This document shows positions 8,983 through 18,697 of a DNA stretch of 40,665 nt, piece after piece. The notes below the pieces were generated by a model. That model saw only the letters and a list, made by a program, of their open reading frames with translations. It was not told the origin of the DNA and searched no databases. A program made the translations under genes and the position numbers. Source of the stretch: a virus (taxonomy: Duplodnaviria > Heunggongvirae > Uroviricota > Caudoviricetes); the IMG/VR virus record IMGVR_UViG_2687453300_000007; one strand, given 5' to 3'. Position 1 is the first letter of the stretch; each line of letters opens with the position of its first letter.

Positions 8983-9942
8983 ATGAAAATTTGTATCGAC
9001 GACGGCTCCACCAACATCAAGCTGGCATGGACTGAGAATGGCGAACGCCGCAACGCCATCAGCCCGAACAGCTTCAAGTCGGAATGGTCTGCGCCGTTCG
9101 GTGGCATGCAGCCCGCGAACTACATGCTTGATGGCGTGCGCTATGGTTTTGATCCGGTTAGCGATCGCTTTGTCCAGACGACCGACACGCAATACCAGTA
9201 CAGCGATGTGAATGTAATCGCCATTCATCACGCGCTGGTCAAATCAGGCATCACGCCACAGGAGGTGGATGTGGTTGTCACCCTGCCACTGAGCGAGTAT
9301 TTCGACACAAACGCACAGCCGGACATGGCCAACATCAACCGCAAAAAAGCGAACGTTATGCGCCCGGTGGAATACCAGAACGGCGAAGCATTCACTATCC
9401 GTAACGTGCGGGTTATGCCTGAATCCATTCCGGCTGGCTTTAAAGCACTGGCTGACATGAGTCCGTTTGAATCCCTGCTGATTGTGGATTTAGGCGGAAC
9501 CACGCTGGATGTGGCAAAGGTTCAAGGGCAACTGGCAGGTATCAGCCAGGTGTTTTGCGATCCACACGTAGGCGTTTCCCTGATGGCCGATGCCGTACTG
9601 TCGGTGATGGCCACTAACGGTATGCGCACCAGTCACCACATCGCCAATACCATTATCGAACATCGCCATGATGAAGCCTGGCTGCGCCAGCACATCCACA
9701 ATGACGCGCATTACGCCAGCCTGATGGCGGTTATTCGTGAAAAGGAAGAAACACTGAAACAACGCGTGATCCGCGCGCTGGCGGTTTTTTCGGGTTACGG
9801 GCGGGTGATGGTTGTCGGTGGAGGGGCGGAGATTGTGGCACCCGCTATCCGCGAAGTCTGCGGAGTTAATGCGACTTTCATCGCGGACGGGGTGCCACAG
9901 TTTGCTCTGGTTAATGGGCTGTACGCAATGGACAAGGAGTAA
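8983..9942 (+). CDS. parM: ParM/StbA-like actin-type segregation ATPase
   Basis: N-terminus MKICIDDGSTNIKLAW…ISPNSFK…YSDVNVIAIHHAL closely parallels plasmid R1 ParM as I recall it (MLVFIDDGSTNIKLQW…ISPNSFK…YSDVNVVAVHHAL). Also has the DxGGxT phosphate motif (IVDLGGTTLD). Confidence 0.8.
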   Translation: MKICIDDGSTNIKLAWTENGERRNAISPNSFKSEWSAPFGGMQPANYMLDGVRYGFDPVSDRFVQTTDTQYQYSDVNVIAIHHALVKSGITPQEVDVVVTLPLSEYFDTNAQPDMANINRKKANVMRPVEYQNGEAFTIRNVRVMPESIPAGFKALADMSPFESLLIVDLGGTTLDVAKVQGQLAGISQVFCDPHVGVSLMADAVLSVMATNGMRTSHHIANTIIEHRHDEAWLRQHIHNDAHYASLMAVIREKEETLKQRVIRALAVFSGYGRVMVVGGGAEIVAPAIREVCGVNATFIADGVPQFALVNGLYAMDKE

Positions 9943-9946
9943 ACCA

Positions 9947-10261
9947 ATGACGACACCAACCAGACGGATAAGTTTCTATCTGAAGCCCGCCGCCGTCAAG
10001 AGTGAACAGGAGGCGTGCAATTACCTCGATAGCCTGCCAGCCTCCGAACGCAGCCGCGCGCAACGCGCGGCCTTTCTGGCTGGGCTAGCGCTCATAAAGC
10101 GCAACCCAGCATTTGCCTACTGGATGGCCGAATGGCCAGAGGACAACCTCCCCTTCAATACCGTTAGCATCAAGGAAACATACCAGGATAATCAGCCTAG
10201 CGGAGTTGAATGCAATTTTTATAAAATAAAAAAGAATATTCAGACCTTATTCCCAGAATAA
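9947..10261 (+). CDS. parR: ParR-like centromere-binding protein (putative)
   Basis: ATG 9947 with AAGGAG SD 7 nt upstream, 5 bp after the parM stop. Segment RRISFYLKP…YLDSLPASERSRAQRAAFLAGLAL resembles the RHH N-terminus of R1 ParR (…LDSIPQGERSRLNRAALTAGLAL…). Confidence 0.65.
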   Translation: MTTPTRRISFYLKPAAVKSEQEACNYLDSLPASERSRAQRAAFLAGLALIKRNPAFAYWMAEWPEDNLPFNTVSIKETYQDNQPSGVECNFYKIKKNIQTLFPE

Positions 10262-10344: not shown

Positions 10345-11187
10345 TCATGATGAAATTGCCGAAGTTTTTTTATCGTGCTGAAGTACCGCAAATGCCATTA
10401 AAACCTCAAGAGAATAGCGGCGATAATACTTAACAAAACCATAATAAAATACTCGGGATGCAGCAATACAAAACAAGAGAAGAAAACAAAAAGGTAACAG
10501 TCTGATATTTATATCTATTAAAAAGGATAGAAGGAGCAGGAACATAAGCAACCAGACTGAAGCGAGAAAAACAAATGTAATGTTTCTACAAAAACCATAC
10601 AAAGCAACATAGTTTTGCATTTTCACCTGATGATTTTTAGAATGTTCATACACATAATGATAAGCAAGGCGAAAAAGATCGCCCCTCAAGCCCTTACGTC
10701 GATATAGCGTAGATACAGAAAAAACATTTATATAACCATCTCGTATTTGCGGCCAAAAGACTTTAATAAGTATAGAATGCAGTGTGGTTTTATGATGTTC
10801 TGCTTTATCAAAAGCTGATACAGGAAATAAAAAAACTCCACGAATAAAATTAACTATACTGAACTTAGTATTATGTCGTTTTATTTTCAGGGAGCTTCTT
10901 TTAGAAAACAGATAAATTGAAGGATACCCAAGTTTACTGTTCATGTATTTTTCAATTAAACAGGATGATAGAATAGATATGAAGTGACCTGAAATATATG
11001 ATAGAACGATTAATACCACATATATAAATACACTTATTATTTCTTTATATTTCAGGATATGGTTAAGAATACCTTCTATATAAACAGGGTTAATTTCAAT
11101 AGAAAACAAAAAAAGGATAAACAGGAATAACCCACCTGGAATTAGATAGCCCAAAAAGTCATAAAATGAAAACGGATTCTGTGTCAC
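10345..11187 (-). CDS. Hypothetical polytopic membrane protein (280 aa, about 4 TM)
   Basis: GTG start at 11187 with strong SD (AGGGGGAAG). Two N-terminal and two C-terminal hydrophobic helices flank a soluble stretch of about 125 aa. AT-rich with atypical codon usage. No family recognised. Confidence 0.6.
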   Translation of the reverse strand: MTQNPFSFYDFLGYLIPGGLFLFILFLFSIEINPVYIEGILNHILKYKEIISVFIYVVLIVLSYISGHFISILSSCLIEKYMNSKLGYPSIYLFSKRSSLKIKRHNTKFSIVNFIRGVFLFPVSAFDKAEHHKTTLHSILIKVFWPQIRDGYINVFSVSTLYRRKGLRGDLFRLAYHYVYEHSKNHQVKMQNYVALYGFCRNITFVFLASVWLLMFLLLLSFLIDINIRLLPFCFLLLFCIAASRVFYYGFVKYYRRYSLEVLMAFAVLQHDKKTSAISS

Positions 11188-11226: not shown

Positions 11227-11724
11227 TTATTTGTTTTTCCGTAAAGGATTAGCTTTCCATCTTCTTACTAACCATTCGAATTCTTGATATGTAGTATCCG
11301 AATTAATGCTTTCTCTGATTGCTTTAATTAATGGCTCGGCAATATCATATGTCTCTACAACTGTTGTGTAAGATGTTCTTTTTATCATTTTTTCATCATA
11401 AATACCTTCACGAATACTTACAGCAACTCGCTCGTAAAAATTTAAAATATATTGAAATTTTCGACGCTCGGCCATTTCTTCATCTGTTATTATGCAACCA
11501 TCACAAGGAAAAACATAAGAACGAAATGATTTGCCTGAACGATGCACTTGTTTCAGGGTATGCAATGACTCTATATATTGCATATCTTGCCGACTCTCAA
11601 AAAGAAAGTTGGCCGTTTGAGTTTTTTTTGCGGTACGCACATTGTAGATAATGGTTCCAATGGCAACCAAAACGCCAAGCAGAACAATAGCATTGCTGAT
11701 GATTTGTAGTGTTATTGGGTTCAT
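11227..11724 (-). CDS. Hypothetical single-pass membrane protein (165 aa)
   Basis: N-terminal TM helix (ITLQIISNAIVLLGVLVAIGTIIY) followed by a soluble domain of about 135 aa. Lies 39 bp upstream of the 280-aa gene on the same strand. AT-rich. Confidence 0.6.
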   Translation of the reverse strand: MNPITLQIISNAIVLLGVLVAIGTIIYNVRTAKKTQTANFLFESRQDMQYIESLHTLKQVHRSGKSFRSYVFPCDGCIITDEEMAERRKFQYILNFYERVAVSIREGIYDEKMIKRTSYTTVVETYDIAEPLIKAIRESINSDTTYQEFEWLVRRWKANPLRKNK

Positions 11725-11738
11725 CCTATTTCATCCAT

Positions 11739-11765
11739 AAAAAAGGCGGGGAGCAAATCCCCGCC
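11739..11765 (-). terminator. Intrinsic terminator/attenuator immediately upstream of the 165-aa gene
   Basis: On the minus strand: 8-bp GC stem GGCGGGGA / TCCCCGCC with a 5-nt loop, followed by TTTTTTAT. It ends 14 nt before the ATG at 11724. Confidence 0.6.
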
Positions 11766-11785
11766 TCATTAGAGGTCAACGTAGC

Positions 11786-11821
11786 TTAGAAACCATCAAA
11801 TTCATCATACATTTTTTTCAT
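11786..11821 (-). CDS. Putative 11-codon leader peptide (MKKMYDEFDGF)
   Basis: Minus-strand ATG 11821 preceded by GAGGGGG SD at 5-nt spacing. Stop at 11786..11788, about 20 nt upstream of the terminator stem. Confidence 0.3.
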   Translation of the reverse strand: MKKMYDEFDGF

Positions 11822-11921
11822 ATCAACCCCCTCATAGAAATCATAACCACGTTTTGTGGTTTTTGTGACGTATAAACTACATCAAAGGCAAGCCACGGTC
11901 AAATATATAGGCATGCTTACC

Positions 11922-12020
11922 TGCACAAAAGTGCACAAATTTGCACAATTTTTTTGAACGACTTTTTACCCTTCCGGCCCGCATGGCGGCTGGATCCGTC
12001 AAGGATCCGTGCGTGCACAA
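11922..12020. repeat. Iterated TGCACAA heptamers at 10-bp phasing, plus GGATCCGT direct repeat
   Basis: TGCACAA at 11922, 11932 and 11942 (exact 10-bp period) and again at 12014. GGATCCGT at 11992 and 12003. Located in non-coding DNA between the cargo operon and the orphan gene. Confidence 0.55.
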
Positions 12021-12320
12021 AAAAACGCGCTTTTTCTGCGCGCAGGTGACGGGGGAACAGCCCGCGTTTCAGGGGGTAAATAGCATTCCCTGAACGATGT
12101 CGCAGAGACACAACAGAATGGCCATATTTCTCACGCTGAGCATGAAAAAGGCGTGAGGGCTTTTGATTTGATGGGGTGAAAGGTAAGGCCGTCAAAATCG
12201 CACTGAGGCAGCGAGAACATGCAGTCAACGCGGTGGAATTGCGTAAGAGTCTGACCGTCGATGGTGGCGATAAACTGGAAGGCGTCGTGAAATTATCTGA
12301 TTGATACAGGAGCTGGAGAG

Positions 12321-12347
12321 CCGGGGCATAAATTTTTTATGCCCCGG
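12321..12347. repeat. Near-perfect 27-bp palindrome
   Basis: CCGGGGCATAAATTTTTTATGCCCCGG, with no flanking U-tract on either strand. About 100 bp upstream of the 174-aa gene. Confidence 0.5.
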
Positions 12348-12447
12348 CGAAGCAGCAGACAAGCGAAGCGCGTCAGCGATACGGCACCTTGCCGACCATA
12401 CTTCATAAGTGCAAAATACGAGCAAAGAAATCAATGGAGGCTGTCTT

Positions 12448-12972
12448 ATGGTCATTAATTACAAGCAGTTAAGAGAAAAACGGGAGCAGGTAAAGGAGAG
12501 CTTTCGCCGCAATGAAGATCTGACCCCGCTTGTACGCCTTGCCCAGGGCATTGTTGATGCTTATGAAATCTCGCTGGAGCTGCCATCACAGACCTGGACA
12601 GATAGCGACGGTAATCGCCAGCATTACGTTTCATGCGGACTGGAAGCAGCCGAAGGATTTCGCAGAATGCCTTTATCCCAGATCCCTGCCGCTACCCCCA
12701 AAGCACGGGGCAGCAATGATGAGCGAAAACTGACTTTTAGTATTGAAACGGTGGTTGACGACACACCTGGCGAAGTCGCGTTCGTGCACACTCCTGTTTC
12801 GATCGCAATGTATAACGATGAAATACAGGTTCGCGTTAATAATAATATCGTGCCACTTAAAGAAGGTAATTCACCCTACACCACCGTTTGTGAAGCCATT
12901 CAATATTACGTTCTCTCTGAAATTGATAATCTCAAGCCTGACGGCACCCAGAAAATGGTTCAACTCTGGTAA
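12448..12972 (+). CDS. Hypothetical protein (174 aa) between the cos region and portal gene
   Basis: ATG 12448 with GGAGG SD 7 nt upstream (the track ORF starts at an upstream GTG). Convergent with Q. No family recognised. Confidence 0.5.
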   Translation: MVINYKQLREKREQVKESFRRNEDLTPLVRLAQGIVDAYEISLELPSQTWTDSDGNRQHYVSCGLEAAEGFRRMPLSQIPAATPKARGSNDERKLTFSIETVVDDTPGEVAFVHTPVSIAMYNDEIQVRVNNNIVPLKEGNSPYTTVCEAIQYYVLSEIDNLKPDGTQKMVQLW

Positions 12973-12977
12973 AAAGG

Positions 12978-13004
12978 ACAGCCCCATCACGGGGCTGTTT
13001 TTTC
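12978..13004. terminator. Bidirectional intrinsic terminator between the 174-aa gene and Q
   Basis: Stem ACAGCCCCATCACGGGGCTGT with TTTTTT on the plus strand and a T-rich run on the minus strand. Confidence 0.6.
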
Positions 13005-14033
13005 ATCAAGAAGAGCATAAGAGTTAAAACGGATCACCTCTTCGCCAAGCCAGTCATTGATGTGCTTCATAGCCTCCATAACGGGCATCAGCTCGTTAAT
13101 TGCGTAAACCCGCGCTGCCTTCTCCACATCGCCAAACGCACTTTTTTCGCCCGGCATCGCCCCCATCAGTTGCGGCGGAACGCGGTGCGCAGCCAGCACA
13201 TCATCACGGGATGCCGCCTTAACATTCATGAATTCATCTTTTGCGGTGATCTGCTGGAACGGCAAAATTTGCACCCCCTCTTTGCCCCCGTTGGGCGCAT
13301 GAATGAGCACGTTTTTAAACGCACCACCACCACGTGCCCCCTGTAGCGTTTCTTTCAGGGAGTCCATGCTTTCGCGGTTTACCTGCGCTGCACCGATGTA
13401 GATGATGCACCCGGCGTGGGATCCGTTGTCGTAGTACAGTTTTCTGAACATGTCCGCCGAATGAGAAAGGCTGGCCGAGAGTAATGCGCCAAGATATTCC
13501 GGCATGCCGTAGATTTCCTGGTTAATATCCGGATTCATCAGGTGGCACACTTTGCCAGGACGAAACTGAAACGCGTCCTTGCCATCCTGCACATACCACC
13601 ATGATTCAAGATCGCTTCCGCGTCGCATGTATTTCGCCAGGGCGTGCCGTAATTTAAGCGGTTCGCCGAGCATATTGCTTCGAAGCTCAAGGAATGCGTT
13701 ACCGAACACAAACCAGTCCAGCGCCAGCGCCGAGAAATCCTGCCGGGAAAGCAGCGGGTGCGGGATGTAGCAACCGAGTAATACATTGCGCTTAAAGTAA
13801 AGCGCAGACTGATGCCAGGACGTTTGCCGGGCTGCTCTTGCCAGACCGTACCAGTCCACCGGGGTTTCATACCACCGCCCGTTATCAGCACAGTACATAT
13901 TGTCCAGCAGGTCATGCCCGGTCAGGCGATAAGGACCATCAAATGTGAATGCACTGAGCGATGATTCTTTCCTGAGCGCATCAGCGAGATCAATGCGTGA
14001 ACTCATGCGCACTTTTTTATTTTTTCTGCTCAT
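12987..14033 (-). CDS. Q: Portal protein (P2 gpQ-like)
   Basis: 348-aa ORF, P2 Q-like in size and position (leftward, adjacent to P, near the cos side). Confidence 0.85.
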   Translation of the reverse strand: MSRKNKKVRMSSRIDLADALRKESSLSAFTFDGPYRLTGHDLLDNMYCADNGRWYETPVDWYGLARAARQTSWHQSALYFKRNVLLGCYIPHPLLSRQDFSALALDWFVFGNAFLELRSNMLGEPLKLRHALAKYMRRGSDLESWWYVQDGKDAFQFRPGKVCHLMNPDINQEIYGMPEYLGALLSASLSHSADMFRKLYYDNGSHAGCIIYIGAAQVNRESMDSLKETLQGARGGGAFKNVLIHAPNGGKEGVQILPFQQITAKDEFMNVKAASRDDVLAAHRVPPQLMGAMPGEKSAFGDVEKAARVYAINELMPVMEAMKHINDWLGEEVIRFNSYALLDEKTAP

Positions 14034-15784
14034 CAGAACTCCATAACCATGAAACGCTCGTTTTCTCCTTCGCCGCCAATTGGTTCGTTAATGACAGCAA
14101 GCATGGTTGCCCACGCAAGGTCGCCGTGGCTGATCCCCCTCGCGCGGTCCGTTTCGTAAGTGATAAAGCCGCCCGGTGTTTTCACCTTACGCACGGCGTT
14201 AAAGGCCGCGACCAGCTCGCGTTCGGCGCGATCGTATTCCCACCGCCCGGCACGCATTATTTGCAGCATTTTCAGTACCAGCGACCGTTTTGATGACAGC
14301 GTGAAGGTGTACGGAATAGCAGCAGGGAAAAACCGCTTCACTATCTGATAAACAGCCTCCCCGTTCCCGCCCGTCACATCAATGCCGATGTGTTCCACGT
14401 TGTAGCGACACGTGAACTCTTCAATGACTCTGGCCTGTTCTTCAAACTCCAGCCCCTGAACGCGTCGCGTCTCCACCGTTCGAAAACGGCCGCCAGGAAC
14501 AGCCGGAGGAACCACCACGGACACAGCGCCGCTGTCGCCGTTGCCACTACTGCCGTTTGCGTCATACCCAATCCATACCGGACGATTCCCCATCGGGCGG
14601 GGAGCAAAAGGTTTCCAGTCTTTCCAGTCGTCGTATCCGTCAACACCGCAGCCAATCAGGATATTCAGGTTAAATGCCGATTCCCCTTCGCGGACAAACT
14701 CACACATATAGAGATTGAGGAACTCGTCTTCGGTGTTTTCATCACGAATTTCGTCGATATCGGTGTGTTTCCAGCCGTGATTAACCACATCTTCCAGCGT
14801 GACAATTTGCCGCCACGTCCGGTCAGGGCAGATAAGCCCATTATGCAGCGTTTTCCAGTCCACAGAAAAACGCTGGCGTTTATGCGAGGCCTTTTTCTCG
14901 TTCCAGCGGTCGCCGTTCCAGTAGGCGTATGCCTCGTGCGTTTCGGTGGATGGCGTGGAGAAGTAGGTGCGCCGCAGTCCGCTGAGGGTTGCCATAGCGC
15001 CAGCCACCTTGCGCAGTTCAGCAAAGCGACTGACCCAGAAAAATTCATCAAAATAAAAATTGCCCGTATAGGACTGTGCCGACGCAGCAGAAGTGCCGAG
15101 AAAATGCAGCTCTGCGCCGTTGGAGAGGATGATTTTATCGCCCCCTTTCAGCTCCACATCAACTTCAGCCGCGGCCTTCTGAATAATGCTTTTAAACTGG
15201 AACGCCTGACGACGCGACGCAGACAAAAAAATCTGGTTACGCTGGTAAGGTTGCGCCACATCGTCACGCAGCGCCATCAGCAGTGCTTCCTGTGCAAAAT
15301 ACCAGGTCGCCCCAATCTGTCGGGATTTCAGGATCATCCTGTTACGTATCCCGGCTTCCCTGCAAAGGGTCAGGGAGTCAAACCAGCCCCGCTGATGCCA
15401 CTCCAGCCTGCTGATGATTTTTTCCCGCAGTGCGGCAATCTGTTCCGGCGTGAAATGATTTTTGAGTTTTTTCGCCCGGCCTTTCTTTCCTGCGGCCATC
15501 ACATCCGGCTGGCCATCATGCAGCTTTTTAAGCTGCCGGGTCAGCAGGTCTATTTCCTTAAAGTCACCGCCTGTTTTATTCTGTTTTTCAGTAAGCTGGA
15601 TGAGGCGCGCATCGATGGACTGCGTGACACGCTGCACGGGTGGCGTTTCATCCCACTGGTCACGTTTTTTCCACGCATAAATCGTGTTCGGGTTTATTCC
15701 CATCAGACGTGATATTTCTGCGGGCGGATAACCCTGCCAGTAAAGTTGCCGCGCACGCTGGCGCACAAAAGCGTCCTGAATCAT
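14033..15784 (-). CDS. P: Terminase large subunit, ATPase (P2 gpP-like)
   Basis: 583-aa ORF divergent from the O-N-M-L operon; size and position match P2 P. Confidence 0.85.
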   Translation of the reverse strand: MIQDAFVRQRARQLYWQGYPPAEISRLMGINPNTIYAWKKRDQWDETPPVQRVTQSIDARLIQLTEKQNKTGGDFKEIDLLTRQLKKLHDGQPDVMAAGKKGRAKKLKNHFTPEQIAALREKIISRLEWHQRGWFDSLTLCREAGIRNRMILKSRQIGATWYFAQEALLMALRDDVAQPYQRNQIFLSASRRQAFQFKSIIQKAAAEVDVELKGGDKIILSNGAELHFLGTSAASAQSYTGNFYFDEFFWVSRFAELRKVAGAMATLSGLRRTYFSTPSTETHEAYAYWNGDRWNEKKASHKRQRFSVDWKTLHNGLICPDRTWRQIVTLEDVVNHGWKHTDIDEIRDENTEDEFLNLYMCEFVREGESAFNLNILIGCGVDGYDDWKDWKPFAPRPMGNRPVWIGYDANGSSGNGDSGAVSVVVPPAVPGGRFRTVETRRVQGLEFEEQARVIEEFTCRYNVEHIGIDVTGGNGEAVYQIVKRFFPAAIPYTFTLSSKRSLVLKMLQIMRAGRWEYDRAERELVAAFNAVRKVKTPGGFITYETDRARGISHGDLAWATMLAVINEPIGGEGENERFMVMEF

Positions 15785-17896: not shown

Positions 17897-18697
17897 ATGA
17901 TTACTCCTGCACAACAACACTGGCAGAACGTGATGGCACAGCGCGCAGGCCGGGCGAATGAAGGTGTGGACCACGCCGCGTGTACCGCGCATGAAGAGGT
18001 GCTGTATCGTCTGCGTCTGGCACAGGCCAGGCTAAAGGCCATACAGGCCAGAAGCGCGAAAGCCGCCATCAAAAAAGAGTTGTTGCCGGACTTTTCCGGC
18101 TGGATTGAGGGAACGCTGGAGGCTGACGGCGGGCAACAGGACGAAGTAATTGCCACGCTGATGGTGTGGGCGATTGACTGCGGCGATCTTCCGCTGGCGC
18201 TGCGTATTGGTGCATATGTGGTCCGTCACAACCTCATCATGCCGGATAACTTTGGCCGTACTGCTGCCACGGTACTGACCGAAGAAATCTGCAACCCGGT
18301 ACTGACGCAGGCTGGGACGGATGCCGACGCGGATTTATCCGCCTTTATCGAACCACTGGACACACTTTGGGAAATTATCGCCAACCAGGACATGCCGGAC
18401 GAAGTGCGCGCCAAATTATGCAAGGCGTGTGCCTTTGCCCGTCGTGGCCTGACCGATGCAGACAACATGGCCTCATCACTGAAGCTGCTGCGCGAAGCGA
18501 TGCACCTGAACCCGAACGCAGGTGTGAAACGCGAGATTGCAACCCTTTCCCGCGCCCTGAAAAAAGCCGATTCCGCAGCCGAACCAGAAGACGCCAGCGC
18601 ACAGCAGGCGCAGGACGAAAGCAGCAAAAGTAAAAAGACAACGCGGAAGCCTGCAACACGAAAAACCACCGCGACGCAGAAGGCAAAGCGCGGTTAA
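17897..18697 (+). CDS. M: Terminase small/endonuclease subunit (P2 gpM-like)
   Basis: 266-aa ORF between N and L; basic C-terminal tail. Confidence 0.75.
   Translation: MITPAQQHWQNVMAQRAGRANEGVDHAACTAHEEVLYRLRLAQARLKAIQARSAKAAIKKELLPDFSGWIEGTLEADGGQQDEVIATLMVWAIDCGDLPLALRIGAYVVRHNLIMPDNFGRTAATVLTEEICNPVLTQAGTDADADLSAFIEPLDTLWEIIANQDMPDEVRAKLCKACAFARRGLTDADNMASSLKLLREAMHLNPNAGVKREIATLSRALKKADSAAEPEDASAQQAQDESSKSKKTTRKPATRKTTATQKAKRG

What the first reader, a model, noticed from the sequence alone, without database searches (positions are those of the whole stretch)
12321..12972. Orphan 174-aa gene inserted between the cos region and the portal gene
In P2 the portal gene Q is the first gene next to cos. 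Here an extra plus-strand gene (ATG 12448, strong GGAGG SD) is wedged between the repeat region and Q, convergent with Q and sharing a bidirectional terminator. It has no recognisable family from the sequence and sits in the same hotspot as the membrane operon, so it may be a further cargo, anti-defence or defence gene.
Basis: inference. Interest (0 to 1): 0.4.

Follow-up and report, generated by a model that had tools for sequence, protein, structure and literature searches.

The report
Accessory moron gene beside prophage portal
A real, selectively maintained 174-residue gene of unknown function sits as a self-contained cassette between the cos region and the portal gene of a P88/P2-like E. 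coli prophage; it belongs to an uncharacterised phage family (phrog_5091) and is an ordinary example of cargo in a known insertion hotspot.

Summary
ORF 12448-12972 (+) has a GGAGG Shine-Dalgarno at 12436-12440. It converges on portal gene Q (12987-14033, -), and both share a bidirectional hairpin terminator whose loop holds the Q stop codon.

The prophage is P88-like (Xuanwuvirus). Phage P88 lacks the gene. About 626 bp here replace about 13 bp of P88, including the last five portal codons. Among 5426 complete E. coli genomes, 1146 carry this cos-Q region and 397 (35%) carry the gene. Nearly all sampled others have an empty site.

dN/dS between alleles is 0.07, so the gene is functional. It is not a true orphan: it matches phrog_5091 over its full length (unknown function). 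About 60 distant relatives lie in lambdoid prophages (Q-to-holin, lysis-to-terminase) and other P2-like prophages.

Pfam, NCBIfam, PADLOC, PDB sequences and fold searches give nothing significant. The AlphaFold model (pLDDT 78) is a soluble alpha+beta protein with no catalytic motif.

Rousset et al. 2022 already list this protein (WP_000236495) as "hypothetical" in the gpA-gpQ hotspot, untested.

My best reading is a moron expressed from its own sigma-70 promoter, acting as a stoichiometric binder in phage conflict. Exclusion is slightly favoured over anti-defence. The function is inferred, not shown.

The parts
12176..12304 (+). 42-codon ORF, probably a relic. It is homologous to the first 44 residues of a 236-aa phrog_5091-like gene found at this place in other E. 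coli P2-like prophages. It is context for the cassette, not part of it.
   Evidence: pN/pS against P88 is 0.084/0.097, which looks neutral, but this rests on only 11 substitutions.
12320..12348 (.). Perfect 13-bp-arm hairpin conserved in all P88-like phages, whether or not they carry the gene. It lies just left of the indel. It is probably the ancestral element downstream of Q, and here it would insulate the cassette from the left.
   Evidence: searches (I5; -31.6 and -29.3 kcal/mol, z about -7), and for conservation.
12377..13002 (.). Inserted module relative to phage P88. The left breakpoint is 12377-12388 and the right is about 13003. It replaces about 13 nt of P88 and rewrites the last five portal codons (TQPTS* becomes EKTAP*).
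   Evidence: Alignments. In E. coli genomes the region spans 1201 nt with the gene and about 587 nt without it.
12389..12417 (+). Putative sigma-70 promoter inside the module: TTGCCG (12389-12394), 17-nt spacer, CAAAAT (12412-12417).
   Evidence: Read from the sequence. Both hexamers and the 17-nt spacing are kept in the 63%-identical Salmonella orthologue, although its spacer sequence has diverged (TTGTCT-17-CAAAAT). It scores 8 of 12, below the 9 of 12 threshold of the consensus scan. It is inferred, not shown.
12436..12440 (+). Shine-Dalgarno GGAGG, 7 nt upstream of the ATG.
12448..12972 (+). CDS of 174 aa (19.8 kDa, pI 5.0). There is no TM segment or signal peptide. It is identical to WP_000236495.1 and belongs to family phrog_5091.
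12978..12998 (.). Bidirectional intrinsic terminator shared by the 174-aa gene and portal Q. The portal stop codon (12987-12989) is in the loop, and the last four portal codons form the 3' arm.
   Evidence: (I7).
12987..14033 (-). Portal gene Q (348 aa). It is 99% identical to the P88 portal except at the C-terminal tail.

Best explanation
This is a self-contained accessory cassette, a 'moron', inserted at the 3' end of the portal gene of a P88-like (P2-family) prophage. It consists of its own weak sigma-70-type promoter, a strong Shine-Dalgarno, a 174-aa ORF and a bidirectional terminator that also ends the portal transcript.

The product is a soluble, mildly acidic alpha+beta protein of phage family phrog_5091 with no catalytic signature. 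It is dispensable for phage growth but kept under strong purifying selection.

I infer three things:
- It is transcribed independently of the Ogr-controlled late genes, and therefore also in the lysogen.
- It acts stoichiometrically by binding another protein.
- It most likely acts as a lysogenic-conversion factor in inter-phage competition. That would be exclusion of a superinfecting phage by poisoning one of its proteins, which is how P2 Tin works, although there is no homology to Tin.

The cassette anatomy, accessory status, selection and family membership are shown. Promoter activity, expression in the lysogen, binding and the exclusion phenotype are inferred.
For: Anatomy.

Accessory status:
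- Absent from P2, from P88 and from 11 other related phage records.
- Present in 4 of 50,697 phage records.
- Present in 397 of the 1146 E. coli genomes that carry this region.
- The indel boundaries are sharp and the module supplies a new portal C-terminus.

Selection and composition:
- dN/dS is 0.074.
- The exact protein occurs on at least 1000 contigs.
- GC is 47% against 53-54% in neighbouring core genes.

Independent transcription unit:
- A strong hairpin lies upstream.
- The -35/-10 hexamers are conserved in the Salmonella orthologue across a diverged spacer.
- I saw no TGT-N12-ACA Ogr-type dyad upstream on reading the sequence. No pattern search was run.

Independence from neighbouring cargo: it occurs with at least 4 different cargo sets left of cos.

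Relatives sit in classic moron slots beside other conversion or TA cargo:
- HicB and Phd/Fic.
- HicAB.
- TerB/TciB-like genes.
- Ant/Bro genes.

Literature: the cosL-Q interval is a recognised pick-up site for lysogenic-conversion genes (PMC5694545), and more than a third of tested gpA-gpQ hotspot systems defend against phages (PMC9122126).

Against: - There is no experimental or homology evidence for any function.
- PADLOC-DB has no hit, even at E<=1.
- The protein is not among the stored DefensePredictor supplementary tables.
- A lone 174-aa soluble protein without an effector domain is atypical for a defence system.
- In lambdoid prophages the relatives lie co-directionally inside the late operon: Q to holin, or lysis to terminase. 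That suggests expression during lytic growth rather than in the lysogen.
- In the genomes sampled, the site holds only this gene or nothing, unlike swapping defence hotspots.
- The promoter is weak by consensus and fell below the scan threshold.
Confidence: 0.35

Rival explanations
1. It is an anti-defence or lytic-cycle helper. The protein would bind and neutralise a host immune component, or sequester an immune signalling molecule, to benefit the phage during infection or induction.
For: - It is small, soluble and acidic (pI 5.0), with no catalytic domain.
- It evolves faster than the adjacent portal: 63% against 75% identity to the Salmonella orthologues.
- Relatives sit co-directionally in the late operons of lambdoid prophages. 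One such locus also holds an Acb2/Tad1-hairpin gene about 5 kb away.
- It is absent from all defence HMM sets.
Against: - In the window the gene is outside both the early and the late operon and has its own promoter-like and terminator elements, which is the usual layout for prophage-expressed cargo.
- Its neighbours elsewhere are mostly TA or conversion cargo.
- A recent survey found very few recognisable anti-defence genes in P2-like prophages (PMC13586616). That only reflects known families.
Confidence: 0.27
2. It is an accessory head or packaging factor functionally tied to cos, portal or terminase, for example one that modulates packaging or satellite (P4-like) interference.
For: - The family recurs next to packaging genes. 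It is convergent with the portal in E. coli and Salmonella P2-like prophages.
- A second family member (236 aa) lies on the other side of the conserved hairpin in the same cos-Q interval.
- Two lambdoid prophages carry it between the lysis cassette and the small terminase.
- The module rewrites the portal C-terminal five residues.
Against: - P88 and about 65% of related prophages lack it, and P88 is a viable inducible phage (PMC5285337).
- Other family members lie after gpA, between Q and holin, beside ant/Bro genes, or in a non-phage chromosomal context.
- These slots are simply the permissive moron sites of those genomes.
Confidence: 0.1
3. It is a host-fitness or virulence lysogenic-conversion gene unrelated to phage conflict, altering host physiology in the way ctx in phiCTX or bor in lambda do.
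For: - The cosL-Q slot carries ctx in phiCTX and Vgr-like ORFs in phiRSY1 (PMC5694545).
- The gene is common in clinical E. coli: 397 of 5426 complete genomes, many from humans.
- In phage CharmingMan the relative sits beside TerB/TciB-like genes.
Against: - The protein is cytoplasmic, with no secretion signal, lipobox or TM segment.
- It has no similarity to any toxin, adhesin or resistance family.
- It is also found in strains from environmental, animal and commensal sources.
Confidence: 0.15
4. It is a chance or decaying ORF with no function.
For: No annotated function exists anywhere. All sources call it 'hypothetical protein'.
Against: - dN/dS is 0.074, with 21 synonymous against 6 non-synonymous changes.
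- Full-length orthologues exist at 46-63% identity.
- About 60 distant full-length relatives share conserved motifs.
- The AlphaFold model is confident and consistent between two alignments.
- A strong Shine-Dalgarno and a terminator are present.
Confidence: 0.03

Closest known systems
PHROG family phrog_5091 (unknown function)
   Same: Full-length HMM match: E 1.4e-67, residues 1-168 against profile positions 1-164 of 164. All 47 distant relatives tested match the same family.
   Different: Nothing differs; it is a member. The family has no assigned function, no Pfam or NCBIfam model and no solved or similar structure.
Cargo in the cosL-gpQ slot of P2-like phages: ctx of Pseudomonas phage phiCTX and ORF1-4 of Ralstonia phage phiRSY1
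   Same: The genomic position is the same: between the cohesive end and the portal gene. The literature describes this as a place where foreign genes are picked up without disturbing phage functions (PMC5694545).
   Different: There is no sequence relationship. Those genes encode a secreted cytotoxin or Vgr-like proteins. This one is a cytoplasmic protein of unknown function, and it is convergent with Q.
P2 old and tin: lysogenic-conversion exclusion genes of the gpA-gpQ cos-proximal hotspot (Rousset et al. 2022)
   Same: It is a non-essential gene in the same gpA-to-gpQ interval, transcribed apart from the phage operons. Tin is also a soluble, non-enzymatic protein that acts by binding a phage protein (my own knowledge; the P2 record notes 'blocks growth of T-even phages').
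   Different: old and tin lie on the gpA side of cos, whereas this gene lies on the Q side. hhalign against Tin gives probability 0.4%. There is no AAA/TOPRIM domain as in Old. In the genomes sampled, its site is biallelic rather than hypervariable.
Lambdoid 'morons' (Juhala/Hendrix concept), for example genes between Q and the lysis cassette or between lysis and terminase
   Same: It is present or absent between close relatives, is flanked by its own promoter-like and terminator elements, and has a lower GC than its neighbours. Family members actually occupy those lambdoid slots.
   Different: The promoter is only predicted. In the lambdoid loci I did not check whether the relatives have their own promoters and terminators.
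Weak structural neighbours: actin-capping protein beta, PI31/Fbxo7 FP domain, Tim21, Mog1/PsbP/DcrB/Eag-type and NTF2-like folds, P1 DarA, AcrIIA11

Membership tests
phrog_5091 | Significant full-length match to the family HMM | tested here: met
   E 1.4e-67, 227.5 bits, residues 1-168 against profile 1-164 of 164. 47 of 47 relatives also match.
Moron / lysogenic-conversion cassette | Present in some but absent from closely related phages, with sharp boundaries | tested here: met
   P88 and 11 other related phage records lack it. 397 of 1146 E. coli genomes with this region carry it. All but one of the 35 sampled genomes without it have an empty 587-nt site.
Moron / lysogenic-conversion cassette | Own transcription terminator | tested here: met
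   Hairpin 12978-12998 with a T-run on both strands; -21.5 and -18.8 kcal/mol, z -5.8 and -4.6. In silico only.
Moron / lysogenic-conversion cassette | Own promoter, active in the lysogen | tested here: inconclusive
   TTGCCG-17-CAAAAT at 12389-12417 is conserved in the Salmonella orthologue, but scores 8 of 12 and was not called by the scan. No expression data were available.
Moron / lysogenic-conversion cassette | Nucleotide composition differs from the flanking phage genes | tested here: met
   GC is 47.4% against 52.9% (portal) and 54.1% (terminase). The difference is modest.
Known anti-phage defence systems (PADLOC-DB v2.0.0) | Match to any of 5027 defence or candidate-defence HMMs | tested here: not met
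   0 families at E<=1.
P2-family core morphogenetic or packaging genes | Conserved in all P2-like phages at a fixed position | tested here: not met
   Absent from P2, from P88 and from about 65% of E. coli prophages with this region.
P2 Tin | Sequence or profile homology to Tin | tested here: not met
   hhalign of the 80-sequence profile against P2 Tin gives probability 0.4%.
Curated protein families (Pfam-A, NCBIfam) | Score above the gathering threshold for any model | tested here: not met
   The best Pfam hit is Complex1_LYR at 12.3 bits against a cutoff of 24.8. NCBIfam gives none. No Pfam family is shared among 47 relatives.
Known anti-defence proteins (e.g. DarA, AcrIIA11, Acb2/Tad1) | Significant fold or sequence similarity | tested here: inconclusive

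The most novel reading that the evidence does not exclude
phrog_5091 could be a new, structurally unprecedented family of single-protein effectors in phage conflict. It could be a Tin-like exclusion protein expressed from prophages. Alternatively it could be an inhibitor or sponge that disarms a host immune system. Either would explain why temperate enterobacterial phages repeatedly place it next to their packaging and lysis genes.
Probability: 0.5. Interest if true: 0.55.

Novelty: new member of a known kind. Interest (0 to 1): 0.3.

Why it matters
The gene is in about 7% of complete E. coli genomes (397 of 5426) and is under strong purifying selection. Yet it has no function, no Pfam model and no structural relative. 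It is a clean one-gene cassette with natural presence and absence alleles in otherwise near-identical prophages, so it is cheap to test for exclusion or anti-defence activity. As it stands it is an ordinary uncharacterised moron in a hotspot that has already been surveyed, so the finding adds curation detail rather than a new principle.

Tried and rejected
Searches that gave nothing useful:
- Pfam, NCBIfam and PADLOC scans of the protein. Nothing passed a threshold.
- A Pfam scan of 47 divergent relatives. No family was shared.
- A profile search of PDB sequences. Only EMC2 appeared, at E about 0.09 over the N-terminal helix, which I take as noise.
- hhalign against P2 Tin was negative.
- The P2 cos 19-mer and blastn of the P2 cos junction gave no match, so the cos site of this P88-like phage could not be placed exactly.
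- An Rfam scan of 11700-13100 gave only a sub-threshold SorX hit on the DUF4760 gene's terminator.
- Literature searches for phrog_5091, WP_000236495, A0A0C5EXS4 and FIG00643476 gave no paper text. The only occurrence is Table S5 of Rousset 2022. The protein is absent from the stored DefensePredictor supplements.
- The search for related loci with the broad alignment failed because no conserved stretch was available. With the narrow alignment it returned only Salmonella and Trabulsiella representatives.

Ideas considered and rejected:
- That the gene forms a system with the upstream DUF4760 + membrane pair. It occurs with at least four other cargo sets, and P88 has one of those sets without the gene.
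- That the ORF starts at GTG 12409. Homologue N-termini and the Shine-Dalgarno position favour ATG 12448.
- That the equal length (40665) of the window and the phage CharmingMan record means they are the same. They are different phages.

Full report
**1. What is at the coordinates**

The + strand ORF 12448-12972 encodes 174 aa.
- GGAGG lies at 12436-12440, 7 nt before the ATG.
- An in-frame GTG at 12409 would add 13 residues. Every homologue starts M-[VT]-[IV]-[NT]-Y, so ATG 12448 is the start.
- Downstream, portal Q (12987-14033, -) and terminase P (14033-15784, -) read towards the ORF.
- The 14-nt gap between the stop codons lies inside a hairpin at 12978-12998: AAAAAGG-ACAGCCCC-ATCAC-GGGGCTGT-TTTTT.
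- The hairpin folds at -21.5 kcal/mol on the + strand and -18.8 on the - strand (z -5.8 and -4.6).
- The portal TGA is in the loop, and the last four portal codons (KTAP) are encoded by the stem.

**2. Which phage, and is the gene extra?**

The region is 100% identical to Escherichia phages vB_EcoM-569R5, vB_EcoM-705R2 and a P88-derived record. It is 99.8% identical to PhiR44_2. These all match the P88 group (P88 itself is Xuanwuvirus, Peduoviridae), which is P2-like.

Only those four of 50,697 phage records encode the protein. P88 itself, 520873, 500465-2, 503458, P884B11, Chuche and Citrobacter phiSM match the flanks but lack the gene.

Alignment with P88 shows the following:
- The sequences are colinear up to about 12376-12388.
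- About 626 bp in the window then replace about 13 bp of P88.
- Homology resumes near 13003, inside the last codons of the portal.
- The two portals are 99% identical but end differently: ...LLDTQPTS* in P88 and ...LLDEKTAP* here.
- The relic of the P88-type stop (TCA at 12373-12375) is still present left of the insert. The few bases after it weakly resemble the old portal 3' end. This fits insertion into a formerly empty site.

In P2 itself, Q follows cosL with only a terminator between them.

**3. Population picture**

Among 5426 complete E. coli genomes, 1146 have this cos-Q region. Of these, 397 (35% of those, 7% of all) have the gene.

In a spread sample of 60 genomes, 21 have the full 1201-nt version and 35 have a 585-588-nt version with nothing in the gap. 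In that sample the site is essentially biallelic, not a slot where many cargos alternate.

One rarer variant exists (31 genomes; see section 7).

Alleles range from 94% to 100% identity, in step with the flanks. The window allele and an O145 allele differ by 21 synonymous and 6 non-synonymous changes. That gives dS 0.20, dN 0.015 and dN/dS 0.074. The gene is therefore functional and has been in this lineage for some time.

The exact protein (WP_000236495.1; UniProt A0A0C5EXS4) is on at least 1000 contigs and is everywhere named 'hypothetical protein'.

**4. Independence from neighbouring cargo**

A conserved non-coding block (about 11920-12376) separates the gene from the variable cargo next to gpA/ParM/ParR. 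The gene occurs with at least four different cargo sets:

| Cargo left of the cos block | Where |
|---|---|
| DUF4760 protein + 280-aa membrane protein | the window; strain 4/1-1 |
| ClpX-zinc-finger gene + a hypothetical gene | O145 strain |
| A longer gene set | PhiR44_2 |
| A different lone DUF4760 gene | strain A36 |

P88 has the ClpX-type cargo without the 174-aa gene. The gene is therefore not part of the 'membrane operon' system.

**5. Family**

Pfam, NCBIfam and PADLOC give nothing. PHROGs gives a full-length match to phrog_5091, unknown function, at E 1.4e-67.

The word-indexed protein search found only close relatives:
- E. coli at 79-96% identity.
- Salmonella at 60-63%.
- Trabulsiella at 46%.

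An exhaustive profile search of 1.84 billion representatives found 88 proteins at E<=1e-3. About 60 of these are full-length, 155-175 aa, and 22-32% identical. All 47 that I tested match phrog_5091, and no Pfam family is shared among them.

Conserved positions are mostly aromatic or hydrophobic: Y39, S42, L43, L45, W50, G55, Y60, V61, F97 and T101. There is also a T-V-x-D-D-x-P loop. This is not a recognisable catalytic constellation.

**6. Where relatives sit**

| Host element | Position of the relative |
|---|---|
| Salmonella P2-like prophages | Convergent with the portal, as here |
| Trabulsiella P2-like prophage | Directly after gpA, followed by HicB and Phd/Fic modules |
| Lambdoid prophages and phage CharmingMan | Between the late antiterminator and the holin, once beside HicAB and once beside TerB/TciB-like genes |
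| Lambdoid prophages | Between the lysis cassette and the small terminase |
| A myovirus-type prophage | After ant/Bro antirepressor genes |
| Bacterial chromosome | One non-phage-looking context |

These are the classic permissive 'moron' slots. No partner gene recurs, so the gene appears to work alone.

**7. A second family member in the same interval**

In E. coli DG342-2 and 30 other genomes, a 236-aa gene lies between the cos block and the conserved hairpin 12320-12348. That is just left of where the window's cassette sits.
- Its residues 98-143 carry the family signature: A..L.D.YE..L.LPS..W.D.DG....YV..G (BLASTP E 4e-8).
- Its first 44 residues are homologous to the 42-codon ORF at 12176-12304, which all P88-like phages keep.
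- That small ORF has pN/pS of 0.084/0.097 between the window and P88, based on only 11 substitutions. This looks like neutral drift.
- It is probably the relic of a truncated ancestral gene of the same family.

The cos-Q interval of these phages has therefore held phrog_5091-type genes at two adjacent points.

**8. Expression signals**

A perfect 13-bp-arm hairpin (12320-12348; -31.6 kcal/mol) is conserved whether or not the gene is present. It would block read-through from the left.

Within the module, TTGCCG (12389-12394), a 17-nt spacer and CAAAAT (12412-12417) form a weak sigma-70-like promoter. The scan did not call it: it scores 8 of 12 against a threshold of 9.

The 63%-identical Salmonella orthologue keeps TTGTCT-17-CAAAAT while its spacer has diverged. 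I take this as moderate support for the promoter.

I saw no Ogr-type TGT-N12-ACA dyad on reading the sequence. No pattern search was run for it.

Promoter + Shine-Dalgarno + ORF + terminator, a lower GC (47% against 53-54%) and presence/absence polymorphism together fit the moron definition.

**9. The protein**

It is 19.8 kDa with pI 5.0, and has no hydrophobic segment or signal peptide.

Two AlphaFold runs, with 9-sequence and 80-sequence alignments, agree (pLDDT 77-78, pTM 0.66-0.71):
- Two N-terminal helices (residues 5-22 and 26-42).
- A seven- to eight-stranded antiparallel sheet.
- A disordered loop (residues 83-89).
- A C-terminal helix (residues 145-159).

Fold searches give no significant match:
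- Foldseek against PDB and BFVD finds nothing at E<0.001.

The fold has no significant match in the PDB or BFVD. What it resembles are mostly binding or adaptor modules, not enzymes.

**10. What is already known**

Rousset et al. 2022 analysed the gpA-gpQ interval of 18,150 E. coli P2-like loci. [quoted passage not shown] It appears 167 times in the stored part of the file. I found no match to it in their other stored tables, including the table of systems evaluated for defence.

The cosL-gpQ slot has been called a pick-up site for foreign genes since phiCTX (ctx) and in phiRSY1 (PMC5694545).

The kind of thing is therefore known and the gene is catalogued. Its function is not known.

**11. 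Mechanism**

Shown:
- Cassette anatomy.
- Accessory status.
- Purifying selection.
- Family membership.
- Solubility.
- Lack of any enzymatic or defence-family signature.

Inferred: an independently transcribed gene whose product acts by binding.

I favour a prophage-expressed exclusion factor (0.35). The cassette is uncoupled from both phage operons and carries constitutive-type signals. Its relatives keep company with TA and conversion cargo. This hotspot is also rich in defences.

The main rival is anti-defence (0.27). It is favoured by the small acidic effector-less protein and by the late-operon placement of lambdoid relatives.

Other readings and my estimates:
- A packaging-linked role: 0.10.
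- A host-fitness role: 0.15.
- A non-functional ORF: effectively excluded.

**12. Verdict**

This is a well-defined but ordinary accessory gene in a known hotspot. It is uncharacterised and easy to test. I rate interest at 0.3 and novelty as 'new member of a known kind'.

Noticed in passing
window 12176-12304 (+); L013:1568-2278: The 42-codon ORF annotated as 'hypothetical' in P88-like phages matches the first 44 residues of a 236-aa gene in 31 E. coli genomes. The rest of that gene carries the phrog_5091 signature. Between the window and P88 the small ORF evolves about neutrally (pN/pS 0.084/0.097, from only 11 substitutions). It is probably a relic of a truncated older copy of the same family.
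   Followed up: partly
window 10345-11187 (-) and 11227-11724 (-): This is a two-gene low-GC cargo (27-38% GC against 52% for the window). One gene is a 280-aa multi-pass membrane protein with a weak PADLOC hit to Csx27 (E 1e-5). The other is a DUF4760 protein (WP_001068329) ending in a strong terminator at 11743-11767. It is a candidate defence pair. It is listed in Rousset 2022 Table S5, and I found no match to it in their other stored tables.
   Followed up: partly
window 11922-12020: Four of the window's ten TGCACAA heptamers cluster here, and three are exactly 10 bp apart (11922, 11932, 11942). This lies inside the conserved non-coding block next to the presumed cos. It could be a phased protein-binding array for the small terminase, IHF or the ParR-like protein. 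The P2 cos 19-mer itself is absent from the window.
   Followed up: partly
window 12320-12348: A perfect 13-bp-arm hairpin (-31.6 kcal/mol) is conserved in all P88-like phages. It has an A/T-rich top and no flanking T-run. It lies 24 nt beyond the portal stop in phages that lack the cassette. Its role (atypical terminator or protein-binding site) is unknown.
   Followed up: partly
window 8983-10261: ParM (StbA) and ParR-like partition genes follow gpA, as in P88. This suggests these prophages may also be maintained as plasmids, as Rousset et al. 2022 noted for about a quarter of P2-like phages.
   Followed up: no
L028:10491-10519: One lambdoid prophage that carries a phrog_5091 member after its antiterminator also encodes an Acb2/Tad1-hairpin protein (an anti-CBASS/Thoeris sponge family) just past its lysis cassette. 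This shows that anti-defence genes share these late-region moron slots.
   Followed up: no
L020:12298-13098 (E. coli 4/1-1): In strain 4/1-1, whose cos-Q region is identical to the window, RefSeq marks the small terminase gpM as a pseudogene with an internal stop. The window's gpM ORF (17897-18697) is intact.
   Followed up: no
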